This document shows positions 4,686 through 64,000 of a stretch of DNA of 64,000 nucleotides, piece after piece; the stretch's first letter is position 1, and each line of letters opens with the position of its first letter. A program made the position numbers and the translations under genes. The notes below the pieces were generated by a model. It made no database searches. It was not told the DNA's origin and saw nothing but the letters and a program-made list of their open reading frames with translations. Origin of the DNA: Octopus vulgaris (taxonomy: Eukaryota). Where the stretch lies: positions 18,848,001 through 18,912,000 of the forward strand of contig OX597825.1 of NCBI GenBank assembly GCA_951406725.2. The letters run 5' to 3'.

Positions 4686-4918
4686 CTATTTCTTTACTAC
4701 CCGCAAGGGGCTGAACACAGAGAGGACAAACAAGGACAGACAAACGGATTGAGTCTATTATATCGACCCCAGTGCGTAACTGGTACTTATTTAATCGACC
4801 CCGAAAGGATGAAAGGCAAAGTCGACCTCGGCGGAATTGGAACTCGCAACTTAACGACAGACGAAATACGGCTACGCAGGTCGCCCGGCGTGTTAACGTT
4901 TCTGCCAGCTCGCCGCCT
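4686..4918 (-). mobile_element. SINE family A, full length, young tail
   Basis: Head GGCGGCGAGCTGGCAGAA, central GTCGACTTTGCCTTTCATCCTTTCGGGGTCGAT domain, tail ...GTAAAGAAATA. Confidence 0.92.
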
Positions 4919-18965: not shown

Positions 18966-19563
18966 CGTTTGTCTGTCCGTGTTTGTCCTCTCTGCGTTTA
19001 GCCCCTTGTGGGTAGTAAAGAAATAGGTAGTTCGTCTGCCGTTACGTTCTGAGTTCAAATTCCGCCGAGGTCGACTTTGCCTTTCATCCTTTCGGGGTTG
19101 ATTTAAAAAGTACCAGTTAATCACTGGGGTCGATATAATCGTATTAATCCGTTTGTCTGTCCTTGTTTGTCCCCTCTGCGTGTAGCCCCTTGTGGGTAGT
19201 AAAGACTTTGGTATTTCGTCTGCCGTTACGTTCTGAGTTCAAATTTCGCCGAGGTCGACTTTGCCTTTCATCCTTTCGGGGTCGATTAAATAAGTACCAG
19301 TTACGCACTGGGGTCGATATAATCGACTTAATTCCTTTGTCTGTCTTTGTTTGTCCCCTATATGTTTAGCCCCCCGTGGGCAATAACGAAATAAATATTC
19401 GTCTACCGTTAAGTTCTGAATTCAAATTCCGCCGAGGTCCACTTTGCCTTTAATCCTTTCGGGGTCGACAAATTAAATACCAGTTGCGTACTGAGGTCGA
19501 TCTAATCGACTGGTGCCACCTCAGCAAAACATTTGGGGCCTTGTGCGTAGAGTAGAAATGAAT
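18966..19563 (+). mobile_element. Tandem array of SINE A bodies (184-bp units) ending in an old-type tail
   Basis: Tail/body junctions at ~19025, ~19209 and ~19393; preceded by (TCTA)n at 18755-18965. Confidence 0.92.
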
Positions 19564-20154
19564 GTCTATCAATCTATCTATGTATGCTCGTGTGCATGTA
19601 TAACTGTTTTTCTGCTAGTAGCATTGTGACTAAGATGATATTTGCTTTACTAAACCGACAGATCACGAATGAAAACCTCGGGGAATCCAACTCTACTTAT
19701 AATCAATTATAGCACTCGAAAAGTTTAGAGGCCAGCCGAAATATTCCCACAATGAAGACGATAAGATCCAGAATTGATAGTAATGAAAGAATTAAAAGTA
19801 TCAATGACATCATTGATCGTATTGCTGTAGATTTTTGGCAGTTTCTATCCGTCCCTGATGAATATTGCGCAATAATTCTAGTGCCACAGCTGACGCTGCT
19901 ACTACTGCTGCTCTGCCGCTGCTACTGCTGCTGCTACTCCTACTGTTCCTATTGCTTTGAAGTTGAATTTTCGAATAATATCTTTATGATTCCTTTACTG
20001 ATAAATAAATATCGAAATATATCCACTGGTAGCCGATTTAGTATTTTTCTAGCAAAGAATCAAAGCAACAATGTTTCGCATAATACCACAGAGTAATCAT
20101 TTTATTTAAGGTCTGTACCCTTACTGCTCTGCTACATTAACAGAATACTTAGAT

Positions 20155-20914
20155 TTCTTTATTTTGGTCATAAGATCTAATATAGGACAGTACAGGACAA
20201 TACAAAACATTAGTAAAGAAATACTCAGCGAGCTTTTTTCAGTTGATTTTTCTTTTCACAAAAATATATTAAGTTAAAAATAGAGAATTTATATGAATAA
20301 AAATTTTGATTTCCTTACATTTTTTCTTGTTGATCTACTGTCCAACGGCTTTTTTTCCTTCTGGTAGATTAAGTAGGGACAGTCACTCCCAACTTCCTTA
20401 CCACATCCTTCCATCTTTTCTCATATATACTTCTAGACAGGTGTCTACTTTCCAGTCCTATCTTGCTTTTCAGGTGATACCTGAAGTAGTAAAGCATTCC
20501 AGGGCCAGAGATGAAGACCCCTAACTTCTTACCTTGTATTCTGGTTCTCCATGCACACTCTTTCATAACAGTGACTGTACACAGAAAACAGGCCTCACCT
20601 TCTTTGGGCAGTCCGGTGAGCGGTACATTCTTAATCACAGACTCAGCCGATATTCTTCCCAGATGTGACAACACGTGTTCTACGTAAATTGCCATCTCCG
20701 AAAGATGTTTACACTGTACAAGAGCATGCAGGATAGTTTCCTTCTCCTGTCCACCTCTTGGACATTCGGGTGGTACTGCAATTCCATGCCTAGACAACCT
20801 ATCGTGAACGGGTAATGCTTTCCTGAAACGCCGCCAGGTCAGGGAACTTCGGTAATTATCGAAATATCCCCACCGGAAAGTGTTCTGAAACATGTTGGAT
20901 AGCTGTTTCCCATG
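20155..20914 (-). mobile_element. 5'-truncated Tx1/L1-clade LINE with 17-bp TSD
   Basis: ORF 20369-20893 has the zf-RVT/CCHC C-terminus (ALPVHDRL..CPR..ETILHALVQC); TAACAGAATACTTAGAT at 20138-20154 and 20915-20931. Confidence 0.88.
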
Positions 20915-20960
20915 TAACAGAATACTTAGATAGCACAGATAATATCAATCTCTAATACAA

Positions 20961-21623
20961 TTAGTATATTTCATTGTTTACCTGTAAAAAGGTTTACATA
21001 ATGGGGACGTTACAAGGGCAGACAAGGGACATATAGGGTACAAACACGCTTCTTATATACAAGATGAAAAGACAGATGGATTTACATCTGGGTTGGGAGA
21101 TAAAAATATACGTGATGATTGGAAGGAATTTGGGTTCCGGTTCGTTATCCCTTTTGGTAATCTTTTTCATTTCTTTTATGTTCCGACCGACCGTGCAAGC
21201 ACAGACTGGAGCATTCTCATCTTTCTTACCACTGCCATCCAACTTTTTGCAAACGCTCTTTGCGGCAGGCTCCTCCTCTCCAGACGGATCTTGCTGGACA
21301 GATGGGCGGCAAAGTTATTCACCAGCCCACGTCCGGAGATGAATTGACCTGTCGCAATCCCTTTCGCTCGCGTCTTCCATACCACATCTTTCAGTATGGT
21401 TACTACGCAGAGAAAAGCTACCTTCTTTTCTTTGGTGAAAGAGGAAAGTCGTACAATATTTATCAGGGACTCGGACGAGAGCCGTACTCTTTCCGCATCC
21501 GACAACAGCTGTTCTGCAAAGGCCAAAGACTCCCTCAATTCCTCACAGTGTACGAAGGCGTGCGTAACCTTTTCTCTGGCACGCCCGCACCTCGGAACGT
21601 GGGGGAGGTGTTAATACCATGCC
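20961..21623 (-). mobile_element. Second 5'-truncated Tx1/L1-clade LINE
   Basis: ORF 21176-21538 is homologous to the neighbouring copy (SSESLIN, KDVVWKTR); possible TSD TCTCTAATACAA at 20949-20960 and 21624-21635. Confidence 0.82.
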
Positions 21624-21702
21624 TCTCTAATACAAGAAATAGAAGCCATTGTGGTAGTGAAATTCTAAACAGCATACCTTTTATCAATTGAAATGAAACA
21701 TA

Positions 21703-22123
21703 GGCGCAGGAGTGGCTGTGTGGTAAGTAAGTTGCTTACCAACCACATGGTACCGGGTTCAGTCCCACTGCGTGGCACCTTGGGCAATTGTCTTCTACTC
21801 TAGCCTCGGGCCGACCAAAGCCTTGTGAGTGGATTTGGTACACGGAAACTGAAAGAAGCCCGTCGTAAGAAAGAATATATATATGTGTGTGTGTGTGTGT
21901 GTTTGTGTGTCTGTGTTTGTCCACCCCAACATCGCTTGACAACCGATGCTGGTGTGTTTACGTCCCCGTAACGTAGCGGTTCGGCAAAAGAAACCGATAG
22001 AATAAGTACTGGGCTTACAAAGAATAAGTCCTGGGGTCGATTTGCTCGACTAAAAGGCGGTGCTTCAGCATGGCCAGAGTCAAATGACTAAAACAAGTAA
22101 AAGAGTAAAAGAGAGTAAAGAGT
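21703..22123 (+). mobile_element. Full-length SINE family B (tRNA head, CORE-like CCTTGGGCAA motif, internal microsatellite)
   Basis: A box TGGCTGTGTGG, B box GTTCAGTCCC, tail GAGTAAAA repeats; more than 10 copies in window. Confidence 0.92.
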
Positions 22124-22636: not shown

Positions 22637-23033
22637 GGCGGTAAGCTGGCAGAATCGTTAGCACGCCGTGCGAAATGCGTAGCCGTATTTCGTCTGCCGT
22701 TACGTTCTGAGTTCAAATTTCGCCGAGGTCGACTTTGCCTTTCATCCTTTCGGGGTCGATTAAATAAGTACCAGTTACGTACTGAGATCGATATAATCAA
22801 CTTAATCCCCTTGCCTGTCCTTGTTTATCCTCTCTGTGTTTAGCCTCTTGTGGGTAGGAAAGAAATAGGTATTTTGTCTGCCGCTACGTTCTGAGTTCAA
22901 ATTCCGCCGACGTCGACTGTGCGTATCAGCCTTTCGGGGTCGAAAAATTAAGTACCAGTCAAGTATTGGGATGCATGTGAGCGATTGTCTCCCTCTCCAC
23001 AAATATTCAGGCCTTGTTTCTGTAGTTCAAACG
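22637..23033 (+). mobile_element. SINE A dimer (head + young unit + old-tailed unit) between (ATT)n tracts
   Basis: Junction AAGAAATA|GGTATTTTG at 22867/22868. Confidence 0.9.
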
Positions 23034-23489: not shown

Positions 23490-24240
23490 GCAGGAAATAG
23501 ACACCTCTAATTTTCAAAATCTTTTATTTACTACACAAAGCGAACAATTGAAATGTAATCGATAGGTAGGACTACTTACTTTAGTATTTAGTTGACATTC
23601 CCTTTGCTGTTTTTAATTCAGAAACTCTTTTTGGCATTGAACTGATGAGCTTTGTGATTGTCTCCTGTGGAATTTCTGCCCACTTTGCACGCAACAATCG
23701 AAACAATTCATCTTTTGATTTAGGTTTCTGTCGAGATTTTCTGATAGCTCTATCTAGTATGCTCCAAAGATTTCCAATTGGTTTCATGTCAGGAGATTGG
23801 CTCGGCCAAGTGCTTTTTTTTATCCCATTTTCAGCCAACCATGTAAGGAAATCAAAATTTCCTTTTTGATGTGTCGCATGGAACCCCATCTTCCATGAAT
23901 AAAAGCTCATTTTTCGTTATATTATCGTGTGAATATATGGGAAGTAGTCCTTGCTTAAGTATTTCGATGTATTTTTCAGAGTTTATGGTTCCAACACATT
24001 CGATCATCTCAGAACGACCATTGCTGGTGACAGCTCCCCATACCATTATAGAGATACCGCCATGTTTCACAGTTGGTTGCAATCGTTTCAAATCAAATTC
24101 TTAATTGGGAAGCCTCCAGACCCAAACACGTCCACTGGCTGAAAATAATGGAAGTCTGGATTCATCTGAGAAAATCACTCTATCCCAAAATGAACTGGAT
24201 TTCACTGACATCTCCTTAACCCTTTCACAATATCGTTAGC
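23490..24240 (-). pseudogene. Tc1-family transposase relic
   Basis: VIFSDES, PTVKHGGISIMVWG and WPSQSPDMKPIGNLW motifs; frameshifted. Confidence 0.92.
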
Positions 24241-29972: not shown

Positions 29973-30970
29973 GGTATTTCGCCCGTGTTTATGTTCGGAG
30001 TTCTGATTCCGAGGAGGCCAAATTTGCCTTTCATCTTCTCGGAATATCAATTAATTTAGTAACAGTGGAACTTTCAGGACAATGTAATCGACTAGTCTTC
30101 GCGCCTAAAATTTCAGGCCTTGTGTCTATAGTAGAAGGGATTGTTATTATTACTACGTCATAACACAGTCTTTAACCGGAGTCTTTAGTCATCTGTCAAG
30201 TCACAATAAGGAACCCAGACAGATAATACTTTCCTTAAGATGTGCGCTGTTATTATTATTATTTTTATTGAGGCGGCGAGCTGGCAGAAACGTTAGCAGG
30301 CCGGGCGAAATGCTTAGCGGTATTTCGTCTGCGTTACGTTGTGAGTTCAAATTCCGCCGAGGTCAACTTTGCCTTTCATCCTTTCGGGGTCGATAAATTA
30401 AGTACCAGTTACGCACTGGGGTCGATGTAATCGACTTAATACCTATGTCTGTCCTTGTTTATCCCCTCTGTGTTTAGCTCCTTGTGGGTAATAAAGAAAT
30501 AGGTATTTCGCCCGTGTTTACGTCAAATTTGCCTTTCATCTTCTCGGAATATCAATAAATTTAGTAATAGTGGAACTTTCAGGACAATGTAATCGACTAG
30601 TCCTCTCCCCTAAAATGTCAGGCCTTGTGTTTATAGTAGAAGGGATTGTTATTATTACTACATCATAACACAGTATTTAACCGGAGTCTTTAGTCATCTG
30701 TCAAGTCACAATAAGGAAGCCAGACAGATAATACTTTCCGTAAGATATGCACTGTTATTATTATTATTTTTATTGAGGCGGCGAGCTGGCAGAATCGTTA
30801 GCACGCTGGGAGAAATGCGTAGCCGCATTTCGTCTGCCGTTACGTTCTGAGTTCAAATTCCGCCAAGGTCGACTTTGTCTTTCATCCTTTCGCGGTCGAT
30901 AAATTAAGTACCAGTTATCTGTCCTTGTTTGTCCCCTCTGTGTTTAGCCCCTTGTGGATAGTAAAGAAAT
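29973..30970 (+). repeat. Tandem duplication of [old SINE A body + Dong 3' fragment + young SINE A]
   Basis: 29973-30501 is repeated as 30502-30970; the junction is again AAGAAATA|GGTATTTCG. Confidence 0.9.
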
Positions 30971-31014
30971 AATAATAATAATAATAATAATAATTATCAT
31001 TATTATTATTAATC

Positions 31015-34464: not shown

Positions 34465-34920
34465 GTAAGCAAAGGGCCTGAAATTTTCCGGAAAGGTGAT
34501 AGTGACTACATTAGCCCCAATACTTTGTATGGCACTTATTTTGTCGACTCCAAAATCATGAAACGCAAAGATGAACCCGGAGGACATGGAAATCTGAAAG
34601 TAAGGACAAAACGAATACCTATTTCTTTAATACTCACAAGAGGCTAAACACAGAGAGGACAAACAAGGACAGAGAAACGGATTAAGTCGATTACATCGAC
34701 ACCAGTGCGTAACTGGTACTTATTAAATCGACCACGAAAAGATGGAAGGCATAGTCGACCTCGGCGGAATTTGAACTCAGAACGTAGCCGCTGACGAAAT
34801 ACTACTATGTATTACGCCCGGCGTGCTAACGATTCTGGCAGCTTGCCGCCTTATAAGGGCAAAACGAATACCGGTAAATATTTTTCCTGCCGTGCTAACT
34901 ATTCTACCAACACGCTCCTT
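34465..34920 (-). mobile_element. Young full-length SINE A (34620-34853) nested in an old SINE A, with 19-bp TSD
   Basis: TAAGG(A/G)CAAAACGAATACC at 34601-34619 and 34854-34872; old head at 34873-34920, old body and tail at 34465-34600. Confidence 0.9.
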
Positions 34921-38149: not shown

Positions 38150-41135
38150 GTCGTTATTCTAAGACAGCATCAGTACATACCAAAGTAATGAGAAGGGATA
38201 GCACTACAAATCAGGAAGGTAAAAGGTGATACCAGCAGTTTAGCGGAGAAATATCAGATTTTAGATGAGTTGAAAGAAGTAATGTGTAACAAAGAAAGAA
38301 ATTATTAACAGCATTAAAGGGTGCCAATAGAGGGAAATTGCTATACATTACAAGGGAAGAAGATTTTGTTATCAGTAGGATAGATACTAAAAATATAAAT
38401 GACGCTAGCTTATTACTTTCAGTAGAGGTAGTAGTTAGTAGCAGATATTAATTCACCAAGGAAATAATAGGAAGGAACAGATGTAGAAAATGAACGTAGA
38501 AAATAAAGTGAAGACTTTAAGCCAATATCTGAATGTAATGGAAATCTGGATACAGAACAAGTTAGAAAACATAGGATTTAAATCTACTCTTAAGAAAACA
38601 ATTCTTAATCAAAGAGAAAGGATTTGGAATACTCATGAAAGAGCTGAAACATCGCATTATAGTAATAGCAGGCAAGCTTTCCAGCTATCAGAAATAAATA
38701 GATCAGTATCAACAGACGATATTGTTTGAGACAAAAGAGGAGATTTTATCACCAAATAAATAGTGTATAAGAAACTACTAAAAATGAGAAGACTAATGCA
38801 GAAGAAGCTAGAACAGTTCTGTGGTGATAAGCTGGTTAATCATAAAGGAGATTCAGCATGGTTAGAGAAAGTGAGTTACGAAGTAGTTAGTGAAATGCAC
38901 CCAGATCTACAACCAAGTAGTGCATTAAGGAGTAGTATTAGAAAGGATGCCGAATCGTAAGGGCCCAGAAGCAGATTCGGTGTAAGGGTAATGGTTAAGC
39001 AAATTTAGTAGCTTGCATGGGCGACTGAGGGAAAAATTTCGGGATTACTTGAATCGAGGAGTCGTACCAAATTGGATGACTAGAGGGAGAAGGGTGCTAC
39101 TTATGAAAGACAAAATCAAGAGCAATATAGCTAGTAATTATCGACCAATTACTTGTTTACAATTAGTGTGAAAGCTGTTAACAGGAATACTCTCAGGAAA
39201 CATTTATAAGCACCATGGCAGCCATAAGGTATTGCCAGAATAACAGAAAGGTTGCAGGAAAAAGACTAGAAGAACGTATGACTTATTATACATTGATTCA
39301 GTAGTTCTAAAAGAAGTGAAATCTGGAAAGCAAAACCTAACAATGGCGTGGTAGATTTTAAGAAATCCTATGACATGAGTCCACACTCATAGATAGGTGA
39401 ATGCTTGAGAATATTTCGTATTGCAGACAACGTACGAGTGTTAATTACAAATAGCATGAAGAAATAGAAGGTAGATATTTACTAAGGTGATCCAGACTTA
39501 GGGAAAGTTAGTATCAAGAGATGAGTTCGCCAGGGAGACTCGTTATCCCCTTTATTATCTGTGTTACGCTTAATCTCACTCAGTTTAGTTTTTAGGAATG
39601 TAAATGCAGGGTATAAGTTTAATAATTGTGATGGAAAATTAAGTATTTGCTCTACATTGATGATCGGAAATTTTTTGTAAGAAGAAGAAAACAATTGGTA
39701 GATTCTTTAATACAGACTGTAAGACTTCAGCAAAGATGTATTGCGAAGTATTGGTCATAAAAAAGTGACAGATAGTCAGCAGAGAGGGCATTCAATTACC
39801 AGATCGCCAGACATTGAAATCACTGAAAGAAGGAGTAAGTTATAAGTATCTAGAAATATTAGAATCTGACAGAGTACTATCTATAGAAAATTGAGGAGTA
39901 CATCAGGAGGGAGAGGAAGTTGATGAAGTCAAAGCTAAACTGTTAGAATCTAGTAAAGGCTGTAAATACTTGAGCAGAACCGTTACTCAGAGGATCAGCA
40001 GGTTTTGTAGACTTGAGAAAATCTAAATTAGCTAAACTAGACAGAAGAACTAGGAAAGAGTTCAACATAAATGAAGAATTTCATAAAAAGTGCAGGAGGA
40101 GCAAGAAGGTATTTACCTACAAAGAAGGTGATAGAGGTTTAATATCAGTAGAAATCCGTGTCGAGTTAGCTAGATTTGATATAGCCTCCTTTATAGGTAA
40201 TAGTGAGTAAATTTTATGAAGAGCCTCTAGCGTAACAGTAGCAGATAGGGAAACCATGAAGGCAATTGTAGTTAAAAAGCAGAAAAAAAAAACAAGATTA
40301 TCTGACTGGCAAGTGATGACTTTGCATGGTAGATTTCCAAAGAAAGTGGCAGAAAATAGAAACAATGAAACATGGTTACGGTTGCAGGAATGAAGGCTGG
40401 AAATGGAGAGAAGTTTGTTAGTAGCAGCACATGATCAGATACTAAGGAGTACCTGGATAATACTCAAGATAGACAAAATCCAGGTAGATTCCGATTGTAG
40501 GTTATGTAAATGAAAGGAGGAATGTGTTACTCATATACTTAATAAATGTAGTGTGCAGGCACAGAAATAATGCAAGAAAAGATATGTCAACCTAGGGAAA
40601 ATAATCCATTAGGAGTTATGTAGAAATCTCAGATTTGAACATACTGATAAGAGGCATGAACATGAACCTAGTAAATTGCTAGAAAGTAAGGAAGATAAGA
40701 TATTTGGGGGTTTTAACAGTCAAACTGACAGAGTAATAAAACCTAGAAGGTTGATTTAAGTAGTAGTAGTTGTAGACAAAGAGAGCAAAATGTGCTATGT
40801 AATTGACTTGACAGTCCCAAATGACGAGAAAGTCAATATAAGAAGTATAGAAAAGGCAGGAGATTACCAGGACTTAACCATTGAAGTACAGATACTATGG
40901 AAAGTTCGGGTAAAATGTATCCCAGTAGTTATAGGTGCATTACGAACTATTTCTAAAGATTTGAACAGGTGAATAGGGGAAATACATATGTAAAGCCTAG
41001 TTTAGTGCAGCTTCAGAAAAACGGATGAAGGTCCTTGGCAGTTAATGTTACGTGTTGTAATCCGATATTAGGAATTTTTCAACAGTCTATTCTGTTGTGC
41101 GTAAATGAGATAATAATAATGATGATGATGATGAT
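38150..41135 (+). mobile_element. Long, decayed R4/Dong-clade LINE (RT + CCHC + restriction-like endonuclease)
   Basis: SNYRPITCL, QGDSLSPLL, SYKYL, CRLC..HIL..C, IDLTVPND and IPVVIGAL; ends in TAA/TGA repeats; numerous stops. Confidence 0.92.
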
Positions 41136-46137: not shown

Positions 46138-46492
46138 TTTAAGTCTATTACATCGACCCCAGTGCGTACCCGGTGCTTATTTAATCGACCCCGAAAGAAT
46201 GAAAGGCAAAGTCGGCCTTGGCGGAATTTGAACTCAGAACGTAACGGCAGACGAAATACCTATTTCTTTACTACCCACAAGGGGCTACACGCAGAGGGGG
46301 CAAACAAGGACAGACAAACGGATTAAGTCGATTATATTGACCCCAGTGCGTAACTGGTACTTATTTAATCGACCCCGAAAGAATGAAAGGCAAAGTTGAC
46401 CTCGGCGGAATTTGAACTCAGGACGTAACGGCAGACGAAATACCGCTAAGCATTTCGCCCAGCGTGCTAACGATTCTGCCAGCTCGCCGCCT
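46138..46492 (-). mobile_element. SINE A dimer
   Basis: Junction at 46260/46261. Confidence 0.9.
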
Positions 46493-50305: not shown

Positions 50306-50337
<32 letters not shown>

Positions 50338-50339
<2 letters not shown>

Positions 50340-50997
50340 TTCTTTACTACCCACAAGGGGCTAAACACACAGGGGACAAACAAGGACAGACAAAGGGATC
50401 AAGTCGACTACATCGACCCCAGTGCGTAACTGGTACTTAATTTATCGAAAGGATGAAAGGCAAAGTCGACCTCGGCGGAATTTGAACTCGGAACGTAACA
50501 ACAGACGAAATACGGCTACGAATTTCGCCCGGCGTGCTAACGTTTCTACCAGCTCGCCGCCTTCACACACACATATATCGGGACAGGCGTGGCTGTGTGG
50601 TAAGAAGCTTCCTTCCCAACCACATGATTACGTGTTCAGTCCCACTGCGTAGCACCTTGCACAAGTATCTTCCACTATAGCCTCGGGTCGGCCAAAGCCT
50701 TGTGAGTGGATGTGGTACACGGAAACTGAAGGAAGTCATAGCAACGTATATATATATGTATACATATATATTTTTTCTTTTATATATGTATATATTTGTG
50801 TGTCTGTGTCTACCCACCACCATTTGATAACCGATGTTGGTGTGTTTACATCCCCGTAACTTAGTGGCTCGACAAAAGTAATCGATAGAATTACAAAGGT
50901 TTACAAAGTATATAAATCCTGGGGTCGATTTGTTCGTGTAAAGGTGGTGTTCCAGCATGGCAGCAGACAAATAACTGAAACCAATAAAAGAACAAAA

Positions 50998-57295: not shown

Positions 57296-57731
57296 AGCGG
57301 TATTTCGTCTGCCGTTACGTTCTGAGTTCAAATTCCGCCGAGGTCGACTTCGCCTTTCATACTTTCGGGGTCGATAAATTAAGTACCAGTTACGCACTGG
57401 GGTCGATGTAATCGACTTAATCCATTTGTGTGTCCTTGTTTGTCCTCTCTGTGTTTAGCCTCTTGTGGGTAGTAAAGAAATAGGTATTTCGTCTGCCGTT
57501 ACGTTCTGAGTTCAAATTCCACCGAGGTCGACTTTGCTTTTCATCCTTTCGGGGTCGATAAATTAAGTACCAGTTACGCACTGGGGTCGATATAATCGAC
57601 TTAATCCGTTTGTCTGTCCTTGTTTGTCCTCTCTGTATTTAGCGCCCTGTGGTTAGTAAAGAAATAGGTATTTCGTCTGCCGTTATGTTCTGAGTTCAAA
57701 TTCCGCCGAGGTCGACTTTGCCTTTCATCCT
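57296..57731 (+). mobile_element. Headless SINE A tandem array (~2.3 x 184 bp)
   Basis: Unit starts at 57299, 57483 and 57667. Confidence 0.92.
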
Positions 57732-58292
57732 TATCGAAGAAATGGCATATGAATGGATGTTGAACGTGCACAGGTTGGATGGGATATTTGTGAGCAAGAC
57801 GTGTTTGTGTTGATGGCAACGGCTGCAAAATACTTAAAGCAATTAAAGTGACACAGGAAAATACAATTTCAGCAGGATTGACTTTAAGAAAGTAATACGG
57901 GAGGTTATTCTCGAAAGAAAAAAGATTCAATGTCTTGTTGAATGTTTTTGTTAATGGTTATTTCTCTTGCGTTTGAGGTATTGCAAGAGGATCCAATGAT
58001 TAGTTATCTGGCAGAATCTATTCGGAATGAGACTCACGGTAGCATGACTTGGACGTCAAACGTCACGAAACATCCCTGAGAGAGAGAAAGGGAAAGGAAG
58101 AAAACAGGATAAGAAAGAACGAAAGAGTGGGAGAGCGAGGGAGAGAAGGAAAAATAGAAAGAAATAAAGAGAGAAAAAACAAAGAAAGAAAGGGATTCGT
58201 GAAAATACGATTAAAATCCTGAGAATGTAAGGAATGGAAAAGGTAAAACACGGACTACAATCGTTTCATAAGAAAGCAATGCTTGTATGCGA

Positions 58293-61508: not shown

Positions 61509-62737
61509 TAGGTCCTCCCATAAATAATACGCTTTTTATATACATCTTTTATTTCTCAAAAATTAAGATAAACAAAGTTCTTTTTAATCTAAAATATATT
61601 CACCTTCATTATGTACAGTGCTCTTCTATCTAGTAGACTTGCAAGGAACCTCTTCCAAAATTCACTTGGCCGCGAGGAAAAATTCTTCTCTTGTACTGTT
61701 CTGACCTCGTCTATAGAATTCATGTTTTCTCGGTCCAAATTATCTTGAAAACTGCGGAATAAATGATAATCAAATGGGACAATGTCCGGCGAATATTGTG
61801 GGTGGGACATCGTTTACCATTCAAACTGCTCCGGCCTTACGAATGTCATACTCTCTGTATGTGGTTGAGCATTATCCTGATGGAAGAACACTTTTCGTCT
61901 CAAAAACAAAGATTGTCATTTTCTTGTAGTGCTGACTTAAGCTTCTAAAGCTGCTCGCAGTAGATTTCCTTTCTTATCTCTTGATTTGTGTTTAAAATTT
62001 CAAAGTGGACGAAACCTTTCCTATCCCACCAAACAGATAACAACTTACGTGGGTGAAGACCTTCTTTGGCCTGGGGTGCCAATGTTTCTCCTTTCTCTAC
62101 CCATTTTCTTCTGCGCTTGACATTGTTAGAGAGAACCCGTCTCTCATCACCAGTCACTATTCGGCCCCCAAAATGTTCATTTGTGAGATGTAACAGCAAA
62201 GGATCGCACGGTTAGACTCGCTAAGTTTGTAAGAAACACAATGACCCAATTTGCTGGCTTTTCCGATGGCATGCAGTGTTCGAGGATTGGTTGAATGACT
62301 AGATCCAAGCTTCTCTGCTAGTTCCTCAGCCGTTACAGTGGGATTTTGGTCCACCAGGATTTGCAGAACGTCCTCATCGAGCTTTGCAGATTTTCCACGA
62401 CGAGGTCCGTAGTTCCGGCTCAGAATTTTTGGAACCACCGTTGAGACTGGCTTATGTCTATTGTCCGATCCCCATTTATTGCATTCACATTCCTTACGCT
62501 TGCCTTTGTGTTGCCTTTATTGAACTCACACAGCAAAATATGCCGAATATGTTCCCTTGTCATTTCCATTATAGCTTTGAAAAATAACTGTTAAACTCGA
62601 ACTGCACTCTTCAAAACTTGCACTAAGAATAAGTCAAGGTAAAATTACTTCTTGCTTTTGTAGTAAGTTGATGCAGGTAGAGTATCCCGTCCCCCTCCGA
62701 TTTTTACTTCATGCATTGAAAACATCGCATTATATAT
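61509..62737 (-). mobile_element. Near full-length decayed mariner transposon
   Basis: HTH (TAEELAEKLG), RIVTGDE, LSVWWD and HPQYSPDIVPFDYHLF; frameshifts; TIR at 61509, other TIR partial. Confidence 0.92.
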
Positions 62738-62749
62738 AATACATATTCA

Positions 62750-63150
62750 GGGCAGGGAACTGGCAGAATCGTTAGCACGCCGGGCGAAATACTTACCGGT
62801 ATTTCGTCTGCCGTTACGTTCTGAGTTCAAATTCCGCCGAGGTCGACTTTGCCTTTCGTCCTTTCGGGGTCGAGTAAATAAGTACCAGTTACGCATTGGG
62901 ATCGATATAATCGACTTAATCCGTTTGTCTGTCCTTGTTTGTCCCCTCTGTGTTTAGCCCCTTGTGGGTAGTAAAGAAATAGGTATTTCGTCTGCCGTTA
63001 CGTTCTGAGTTCAAATTTCACCGAGGTCGACTTTGCCCTTCATCCTCTCGGATTCAATAAAGTTAGTACCAGTTACGCACTGGGATCGATGTAATCGACT
63101 TAATCTCTTACCTTAAATTTGAGGCCTTGTGCTTCCACTAGTGAGGATTA
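62750..63150 (+). mobile_element. SINE A dimer (head + young unit + old-tailed unit)
   Basis: Junction at 62981/62982. Confidence 0.9.
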
Positions 63151-64000
63151 TTTATGGAATATACAATATATATGTATGCATACATTCACACGCATCATAA
63201 ACCGGTACGCTGATTTCTATATCACTTGCATAAACGTGCACAAGGACACTTACACACAAACACAACACACACACATATACATATATACACATGTGTATGT
63301 GAGAGAGAGTGTGTGGGTGAGGGGATGTGTGTATATTGAAGAGCAAGCATTTTCAAATCACCCTCATTTTTAAAGATCAAATATAATTCCTTTGAACTAT
63401 CTCAGTACATGCAGAATATATGTTAATCTTGAATGCAACCGAAGCAGCGGCCATCTTCATCAATGGATGAATAGAAGATGCTTGTTCTGTGAGAGACAGT
63501 AAAATATACAACCCACATGCAACTGATTCAGATACAGAACAAAAAAATAAAATGACAAACGACACAAGGAAATACCATAGCAAGCAAGCATCGCTTAAAA
63601 AGCAACATTCTAATTAGAGATACGATAATAATCCACGACATGTAACGGGATAAGAAAGGATACTGAAAACGATTATAATAGTATCATGCGTCATATGGTC
63701 ACTGTCAAATTGAATTGATTAAAGCAGTAGGTAACCAGTGAGGTAATCTACGTCAAGGTGATAACTATCCTCAGAGCAACTACCGTCTGTTGACAAGAGA
63801 ATAGAAAAACGGACGAAAGATTACGACATTAGAAACCTAGAATTTCTAAGAGATGCCTTGAAAAGCGCCCTAGAGAGGGAAAATTCGGTGAACGGATGTA
63901 AAGCCTTTGATTAGTAGAAACATGTGCGCATTTGTAGCATATATATAAATATTTATATATGCATGTATTTGCTATTGTGTGTATGAGACAAACACACAGA

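What the first reader, a model, noticed from the sequence alone, without database searches (positions are those of the whole stretch)
20138..21635. Candidate partner LINE: Tx1-like 3' ends resemble the young SINE A tail
Seen on the minus strand: LINE 2 ends TCCCTTGTCTGCCCTTGTAACGTCCCCATTATGT-AA-ACCT-ttttac-AGGT-AAACAATGAAATA. LINE 1 ends TTGTATTGTCCTGTACTGTCCTATATTA-GATC-ttat-GACC-AAAATAAAGAAA. The SINE tail is TTGTCTGTCCTTGTTTGTCCCCTCTGTGTTTAG-CCCC-ttgt-GGG-TAGTAAAGAAATA. All share a TGTCC-rich tract, a small hairpin and an A-rich GAAA end. Both LINE TSDs also contain GTATT, as does the SINE target. Established: SINEs often borrow the 3' end of their mobilising LINE, and the Tx1 clade includes sequence-specific members. 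Inference: a Tx1 family supplies the target specificity.
Basis: partly seen in the sequence, partly recalled or inferred. Interest (0 to 1): 0.7.

Follow-up and report, generated by a model that had tools for sequence, protein, structure and literature searches.

The report
Self-nesting SINE with Tx1-like LINE tail
Two broken-off ends of Tx1-like jumping genes lie side by side in what is likely an octopus genome, and one ends in a sequence resembling the tail of a young short repeat that sits inside older copies of itself, so a relative of this jumping gene likely copies and aims that repeat, although neither copy here sits at the repeat's preferred site.

Summary
Both inserts are real: 5'-truncated ends of two families (43% protein identity) of an octopod Tx1-like LINE lineage, with 17-bp and 12-bp target-site duplications (TSDs). 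LINE 2's 3' end resembles the young SINE A tail beyond chance (z 4.5, 0 of 1500 shuffles; best of 12,394 non-tail 80-mers; 23/30 identical in the core, at the same distance from the end). LINE 1's resemblance is marginal (78 of 1500). The hairpins are weak evidence. SINE self-targeting is shown in this window: 10 of 13 tails abut the body start of another SINE A copy, and one full-length copy sits in an old copy with a 19-bp TSD. But both LINEs lie in single-copy DNA, not in SINE A, and their GTATT is out of register, so the claim that a Tx1 endonuclease supplies the specificity is untested. Whole-tail identity is only 38/63, so LINE 2 is more likely a sister of the partner than the partner. 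Best reading: a SINE took its tail from a Tx1-like lineage and is steered into its own family, by a sister family's endonuclease or by read-through RNA pairing. New variant of a known kind; one window, no genome.

The parts
20155..20914 (-). LINE 1: 760-bp 5'-truncated Tx1-like LINE end (ORF2 C-terminus with zf-RVT, stop near 20369, then 3' UTR)
   Evidence: (PF13966 E 4.5e-9)
20138..20154 (-). LINE 1 TSD, 3' copy (17 bp)
   Evidence: D7
20915..20931 (-). LINE 1 TSD, 5' copy (17 bp)
   Evidence: D7
20961..21623 (-). LINE 2: about 663-bp 5'-truncated Tx1-like LINE end (ORF2 C-terminus, frameshift near 21596, stop near 21176, then 3' UTR)
   Evidence: other copies carry one more base at 21596 (table 4)
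20967..21025 (-). LINE 2 3'-terminal stretch homologous to the young SINE A tail (core 23/30 identical)
20949..20960 (-). LINE 2 TSD, 3' copy (12 bp)
   Evidence: D2
21624..21635 (-). LINE 2 TSD, 5' copy (12 bp)
   Evidence: D2
34620..34850 (-). Full-length young SINE A (head, body, 62-nt tail) inserted in an old SINE A copy at the head/body boundary
34854..34872 (-). 19-bp TSD, 5' copy, starting GGTATT, directly behind the old SINE head (about 34920-34873)
   Evidence: 18 of 19 identical to the 3' copy
34601..34619 (-). 19-bp TSD, 3' copy, running on into the old body (72.6% to the young majority) and old 3' end
18966..19560 (+). SINE A array: tail, two 184-bp body+tail units, older body and old 3' end
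22637..23030 (+). SINE A head, body, tail, then older body (80.3%) and old 3' end
29973..30971 (+). 529-bp tandem duplication whose joint is SINE tail | GGTATT of an old SINE A body
46139..46491 (-). SINE A head, body, tail, second body
57299..57732 (+). Headless SINE A array, 2.4 units of 184 bp
62751..63150 (+). SINE A head, body, tail, then second body (90.2%) and old 3' end
4687..4917 (-). Tail-bearing SINE A not followed by a SINE body
50337..50561 (-). Tail-bearing SINE A ending in a (TA)n/(TG)n microsatellite

Best explanation
The stretch holds two 5'-truncated copies, with their own target-site duplications, of two families of a Tx1-like LINE lineage, and the young SINE A likely took its 62-nt tail from the 3' end of a family close to LINE 2, whose proteins would recognise that tail and copy the SINE into the GGTATT site of older SINE A copies. 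Shown: the two inserts and TSDs; their lineage; the LINE 2/tail similarity; that 10 of 13 tails abut a SINE A body start; one 19-bp TSD. Inferred: the young subfamily arose when the Tx1-like 3' end replaced the old 3' end; the partner is a sister family of LINE 2, not yet seen, whose endonuclease nicks at C|GGTATT and again about 19 bp further; because the overhang is the same sequence as the start of the SINE body, cDNA can pair with it and give the exact headless 184-bp units, while full-length copying gives head plus TSD. Read-through RNA (most copies have no run of four T) would help priming at that site.
For: TSDs. zf-RVT in LINE 1; 43% identity LINE 1/LINE 2. Full-length relatives have APE+RT+zf-RVT and include Argonauta hians proteins; they score 287-334 bits to 5 proteins named Tx1/YTX2 and 175-185 bits to human L1 ORF2p, while a named Tx1 scores 170 bits to L1. 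LINE 2 end vs 13 tails z 4.46, 0 of 1500; top of 12,394 non-tail 80-mers; z 5.30 with the base that nearly all other copies carry at 21002 (1522 of 1577 depth in X1, 7247 of 7342 in X2). Core 23/30, 57 vs 59 nt from the end, shared GAAATA end. SINE ends at GAAATA in 3 of 13 copies with other flanks and abuts a SINE body in 10 of 13, 7 of 9 loci. Downstream bodies range 72.6-98.5% to the young majority, so targets of different ages were hit. None of the 30 GGTATT sites outside the SINE body start is preceded by a tail. Among copies with the old 3' end, 4 of 4 with intact GGTATT are hit against 1 of 5 without (read by eye, one-sided Fisher p 0.04 by hand). Precedent: SINEU shares a target with Tx1-Mar and forms tandems sandwiching a TSD (PMC4494074, passages and section 15).
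Against: Neither LINE copy is in SINE A: the modelled empty site scores 144 against SINE A, shuffles 133 +/- 16, and the right flank has single-copy depth. GTATT lies at different offsets. Whole-tail identity to LINE 2 is 38/63 and only 14/29 in the last 29 columns. LINE 1 is marginal and its read-supported variant does not improve it (81 of 1500). The runner-up 80-mer, a TG/TCTA-rich repeat, scores 112 against LINE 2's 116, and 1 of 12 control pairings (old tail at 63104 vs LINE 2) reached p 0.01, so low-complexity chance is not excluded. The comparison was picked by eye before testing. The lineage forms its own branch apart from the named vertebrate Tx1 proteins, so their target specificity cannot be assumed. 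One window only; no flanks of other LINE copies were seen.
Confidence: 0.45

Rival explanations
1. The tail does come from the Tx1-like lineage, but the endonuclease is unspecific; the SINE finds its own family because read-through RNA carries GGTATT-body sequence behind the tail and pairs with nicked SINE A copies.
For: Both LINE copies lie in single-copy DNA. No run of four or more T in 3 of 7 SINE loci scanned, and none inside the young unit before the tail's end in 5 of 7, so Pol III could read through. Pairing of the RNA 3' end with the target is proposed for SART1Bm, and R1Bm is said to need downstream target sequence (PMC7265360, passages). 3 of 13 tails lie outside SINE A.
Against: Copies only 73% like the young body were hit at the same base, with a clean 19-bp TSD at 34.6-34.9 kb; random nicks would seldom fall on exactly that bond. 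The first nested copy needs another origin.
Confidence: 0.25
2. The tail resemblance is chance between T/C-rich then A-rich ends; SINE A is moved by another LINE clade.
For: LINE 1 not significant; runner-up repeat scores 112 vs 116; one control at p 0.01; hairpins common by chance; RTE, Dong-R4 and CR1 are also active in Octopus vulgaris (PMC13282606, Table 1 passage).
Against: z 4.46-5.30 against shuffles, top rank in the window, matching distance from the 3' end, and the family-majority base moving toward the SINE. SINE TSD of 19 bp fits the 12-17 bp of these LINEs.
Confidence: 0.18
3. LINE 2's own family is the direct partner and the copy here is a diverged, off-target insertion.
For: LINE 2's 3' UTR is multi-copy (depth about 65-110 times single-copy flank in X1 and X2; depth is a rough guide only), and the family base at 21002 matches the SINE. 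Its junction C|TTGTATT is within one base of C|GGTATT.
Against: Only 14/29 identity in the last 29 columns; of the 40 variants displayed only one lies in this tail (450 were not shown).
Confidence: 0.12
4. The head-body-tail-body arrays are mainly DNA-level products (a dimeric master or unequal crossing-over), not repeated targeted insertion.
For: SINE-derived tandem arrays are attributed to unequal recombination in reptiles and bivalves (PMC10702118, PMC11481361, passages); the 29973-30971 duplication includes unique flank; some second bodies are 93-98% like the young majority.
Against: The 34.6-34.9 kb copy has two heads and a TSD; second bodies span 73-98% identity; three copies end at the tail. 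Recombination may lengthen arrays but does not explain these.
Confidence: 0.1

Closest known systems
SINEU and Tx1-Mar of crocodilians (PMC4494074; passages and section 15 seen)
   Same: A SINE with a repeat as preferred target, tandem insertions sandwiching a TSD, and a Tx1-group LINE as the inferred mover.
   Different: SINEU has snRNA heads and a poly(A) tail, targets a Mariner element, and no LINE sharing the SINEU-1 3' end was found; here the head is tRNA-type, the tail resembles the LINE 3' end, the target is the SINE's own family, and the shared target with the LINE is not shown.
Tx1 clade LINEs (Tx1, Keno, Kibi, Koshi; as summarised in PMC4494074)
   Same: APE-RT-zinc-knuckle ORF2; relatives score far higher to proteins named Tx1/YTX2 than to human L1.
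   Different: The octopod lineage is a separate long branch from the named vertebrate Tx1 proteins; the two copies here lie in single-copy DNA.
SINE/LINE pairs with a common 3' tail (PMC3747384 passages; bivalve pairs in PMC11481361 passages)
   Same: A roughly 60-nt shared 3' end with a possible small stem-loop; tail exchange on a constant head and body.
   Different: Bivalve partners reported are CR1, CR1-Zenon, L2 and Nimb; 'Tx1' occurs 0 times in PMC11481361 and its 5 occurrences in PMC3747384 are outside the SINE/LINE pair table. Identity here (38/63) is lower than the near-identity described for the tobacco TS pair.
Octopus tRNA-derived SINEs of Ohshima and Okada 1994 (seen only as a citation; the name OK is recalled)
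   Same: Abundant tRNA-type SINE with A- and B-box-like motifs (by eye) in a genome whose LINE relatives include an octopod.
   Different: No sequence comparison was possible; which named family SINE A belongs to is not established.

Membership tests
L1/Tx1 group of non-LTR retrotransposons | ORF2 with APE endonuclease, RT and C-terminal zinc knuckle | tested here: met
   zf-RVT in LINE 1 itself; LINE 2 has no Pfam hit of its own but is 43% identical to LINE 1; APE and RT seen only in full-length relatives
L1/Tx1 group of non-LTR retrotransposons | 5' truncation and TSDs of variable length | tested here: met
   17-bp and 12-bp TSDs; both inserts begin inside ORF2
Tx1 clade | RT phylogeny groups with Tx1 rather than other L1 lineages | tested here: inconclusive
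   Relatives 287-334 bits to named Tx1 vs 175-185 to human L1; quick tree of 43 RT rows had no L1 outgroup and put the octopod group on its own branch. The window's fragments have no RT.
Tx1 clade | Target-sequence preference (many, not all, members) | tested here: inconclusive
   The two copies are in single-copy DNA unlike SINE A; both TSDs contain GTATT out of register; they lie 17 bp apart; flanks of other copies were not visible
SINE/LINE partner pair (LINE 2 family with SINE A) | SINE 3' tail homologous to the LINE 3' end | tested here: met
   z 4.46, 0 of 1500; core 23/30; whole tail only 38/63
SINE/LINE partner pair (LINE 1 family with SINE A) | SINE 3' tail homologous to the LINE 3' end | tested here: inconclusive
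   78 of 1500 shuffles reach the score; 30/63 identity
SINE/LINE partner pair | Shared insertion signature (same nick site) | tested here: not met
   SINE at C|GGTATT in SINE A; the two LINE copies elsewhere, motif at offsets 1, 2 and 6; only 2 LINE copies examined
SINE/LINE partner pair | Conserved 3' stem-loop | tested here: inconclusive
   SINE stem paired in 12-13 of 13 copies with one double change; LINE stems have low pair probability; chance 22-52%
SINE/LINE partner pair | Concurrent activity and trans-mobilisation | not testable with these tools
   No genome held; no assay possible
tRNA-derived SINE (SINE A) | [quoted passage not shown] | tested here: inconclusive
   Box-like motifs seen by eye (consensus recalled); ARAGORN found 0 genes and Rfam gave no tRNA match at 62700-63200

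The most novel reading that the evidence does not exclude
An octopod SINE subfamily swapped its 3' end for that of a Tx1-like LINE and thereby became a parasite of its own family: the LINE machinery cuts at the head/body boundary of SINE A, between the Pol III boxes, so each new copy lands in an older one, building 184-bp arrays. This would be a SINE with both a Tx1-derived tail and itself as target, and would imply a Tx1-like LINE that targets a SINE.
Probability: 0.4. Interest if true: 0.68.

Novelty: new variant of a known kind. Interest (0 to 1): 0.5.

Why it matters
SINEs are about 11.6% of the Octopus vulgaris assembly and L1-Tx1 has 80 families, 13 recently active (PMC13282606, passages and supplement row); the passages and supplement rows I saw name no partner or target. 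A SINE that is aimed at its own copies would explain short SINE arrays by repeated insertion, would limit damage to genes, and gives a testable case of how insertion specificity passes from LINE to SINE (endonuclease versus RNA pairing). It is transposon natural history, not a new enzyme class.

Tried and rejected
No genome is held, so no genome-wide tail search or flank count. Word-based protein search with LINE 1 found nothing; the HMM search did. Read laying included the edge of a very abundant second SINE, which filled the loose-end table (1365 rows not shown), so flanks of other LINE copies were not seen. No RNA holder listed. Organism E shows no cover of the LINE 2 3' UTR at 82% likeness and one contig stops at 20152 with 35 unmatched letters; a hole proves nothing and no joint across the insert was listed, so an empty site is not claimed. 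Pattern scans: 0 loci in viral contigs; 13 in metagenome contigs, matching only over 18-26 bases, taken as chance. Protein-to-locus scans of viral and genome contigs found no relative. ESM Atlas gave only unnamed RT/zf-RVT clusters. The careful RT tree did not finish; the quick one is cited. C-terminal tree used 33 of 55 rows (those aligning over 105 residues or more). TSD search found a clear TSD in 1 of 8 head-to-tail SINE copies. The empty-site model held one extra base (21623), which does not affect the result. Earlier-findings look-ups were empty. Literature searches listed no paper describing an octopus SINE with a Tx1 tail or self-targeting; Repbase, Dfam and the 1994 octopus SINE paper could not be seen, so it may be recorded there. 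Rejected: hairpins as evidence; GTATT as a shared cut site; LINE 1 as partner.

Full report
Setting. The window is AT-rich, full of microsatellites and SINE copies. No genome is held. The nearest named relatives of the LINE proteins are from Argonauta hians, so an octopod is likely; the species was not determined.

The two inserts. On the minus strand LINE 2 spans 21623-20961 between exact 12-bp repeats and LINE 1 spans 20914-20155 between exact 17-bp repeats; 17 bp separate the two TSDs. Both start inside ORF2 and keep its C-terminus and 3' UTR. LINE 1 has a zf-RVT domain (E 4.5e-9); LINE 2 has no relevant Pfam hit but is 43% identical to LINE 1. A profile of the two found 325 proteins, 86 at 1e-10. 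Full-length relatives carry APE, RT and zf-RVT. P0153 and the argonaut P0162 score 287-334 bits to five proteins named Tx1/YTX2 and 175-185 bits to human L1 ORF2p; a named Tx1 scores 170 to L1. In a quick RT tree without an L1 outgroup the octopod group lies on its own branch with an unnamed sister group, apart from the named Tx1 proteins. LINE 1 and LINE 2 fall in a radiation of related families (33 of 55 rows). 'Tx1-like' is fair; strict membership is not shown. Contigs of four public runs show both are multi-copy: LINE 2's 3' UTR about 65-110 times and LINE 1's about 7-17 times the single-copy flank in X1 and X2 (a rough guide only).

Tail resemblance. Mean local-alignment score of the last 80 nt against all 13 SINE tails: LINE 2 104.7 vs 66.5 +/- 8.6 (0 of 1500 dinucleotide shuffles), LINE 1 75.5 vs 60.6 +/- 8.2 (78 of 1500). 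LINE 2's end is the best of 12,394 sampled non-tail 80-mers, though a simple-repeat stretch scores 112 against 116. The core matches at 23/30 and lies 59 vs 57 nt from a shared GAAATA end; the whole tail matches at 38/63 and the last 29 columns at 14/29. At 21002 nearly all other copies carry the base that the SINE has (23 contigs in X1, 26 in X2), raising z to 5.30; a minority insertion in LINE 1 does not help it (81 of 1500). Of 12 control pairings with other SINE 3' ends, one reached p 0.01. The hairpins add little: the SINE stem is kept in 12-13 of 13 copies with one double change, but the LINE stems have pair probabilities of 0.04 or less in 60 nt, and 22-52% of random 60-mers have such a stem. 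Conclusion: LINE 2's end is probably homologous to the tail; LINE 1's is marginal; the low identity points to a sister family as donor and mover.

SINE target. SINE A is head (47 nt), body (122 nt) and either an old 3' end or the young 62-nt tail. Of 13 tails, 10 (7 of 9 loci) are followed at once by a body start; 3 end in other sequence, which fixes the element's end at GAAATA. At 34920-34460 an old head is followed by a 19-bp stretch beginning GGTATT, a full young SINE, the same 19 bp (one mismatch), and the old body and 3' end: a nested insertion with TSD. It is the only clear TSD among 8 head-to-tail copies. Bodies behind tails are 72.6-98.5% like the majority of tail-bearing bodies, which are 91-99% (the majority was built from these 11, so they are biased high; one body with a deletion was left out). 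Of 44 GGTATT sites, the 30 outside a body start have no tail before them, so the hexamer alone is not enough. Among copies with the old 3' end, all 4 with intact GGTATT are hit against 1 of 5 without (by eye; p 0.04 by hand, small numbers).

Do the LINEs share it? Not visibly. The modelled empty site does not resemble SINE A (144 vs 133 +/- 16) and the right flank is single-copy. Both TSDs contain GTATT, which is uncommon by chance (about 0.003-0.004 allowing any 5-mer of the target), but at offsets 2 and 6 from the junction against 1 for the SINE, and the two sites are neighbours, not independent. Two insertions 17 bp apart may mark a favoured site, unexplained. The test that matters, flanks of other LINE copies, failed because a second SINE filled the loose-end table.

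Mechanism. Established (own knowledge and PMC3747384, PMC4494074 passages): SINEs borrow LINE proteins through a shared 3' end, insertion is by target-primed reverse transcription, and many Tx1 families prefer a repeat as target. Inferred here: a Tx1-like sister of LINE 2 gave the tail and nicks at C|GGTATT and about 19 bp on. Because that overhang equals the start of the SINE body, cDNA can pair with it and yield exact headless 184-bp units; full-length copying yields head plus TSD. The main rival is an unspecific endonuclease with targeting by read-through RNA, since most copies lack a four-T stop and RNA-target pairing is proposed for SART1Bm and R1Bm (PMC7265360, passages). Chance similarity, LINE 2 as direct partner, and recombination are weaker rivals.

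Comparison and novelty. Closest is SINEU/Tx1-Mar (PMC4494074, passages and section 15), where the target is a Mariner element and no shared tail was found for SINEU-1. Bivalve SINE partners are CR1, CR1-Zenon, L2 and Nimb (PMC11481361, passages). Octopus repeat papers list L1-Tx1 and SINE amounts; the passages seen name no pairing (PMC13282606 passages and supplement search; PMC8967140 passages). PMC4758252, PMC4824008 and PMC3531059 (passages) cite the 1994 octopus SINE paper, which I did not see; PMC10702118 (passages) treats SINE-derived arrays. Eight searches listed no description of this pairing; Repbase and Dfam were not available.

Verdict. Observation partly confirmed; interpretation partly supported. 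Tail origin from this LINE lineage about 0.8 (best, first and third rivals together); endonuclease-driven self-targeting by a sister family 0.45. New variant of a known kind, interest 0.5.

Noticed in passing
window 29973-30971: A 529-bp tandem duplication including unique flank has its joint exactly at SINE tail | GGTATT of an old SINE A; it may be an insertion-linked duplication rather than plain unequal crossing-over.
   Followed up: partly
window 20932-20948: Two different LINE families inserted with only 17 bp between their TSDs in single-copy DNA; unexplained hot spot or chance.
   Followed up: partly
window 20394-20827: In organism E (run X14) the LINE 1 coding part has several hundred times single-copy depth while its 3' UTR is low, suggesting a related family with another 3' UTR expanded there.
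   Followed up: no
window 39025-39324: Weak reverse-transcriptase match (E 0.001-0.008), likely a remnant of another LINE.
   Followed up: no
window 21700-21880: A second SINE-like repeat with depth in the millions in all four runs.
   Followed up: no
window 21900-22100: A third repeat that shares the GGGGTCGAT...TCGACT block with the SINE A body and has a TGTCTGTGTTTGTCC stretch like the tail (by eye).
   Followed up: no
window 23580-24000 (minus): Looks by eye like the broken end of a Tc1/mariner transposase gene; not tested.
   Followed up: no
window 20210-20223: The last 14 bases of the SINE tail occur in the opposite orientation inside the LINE 1 3' UTR (E 1.0); probably chance.
   Followed up: no
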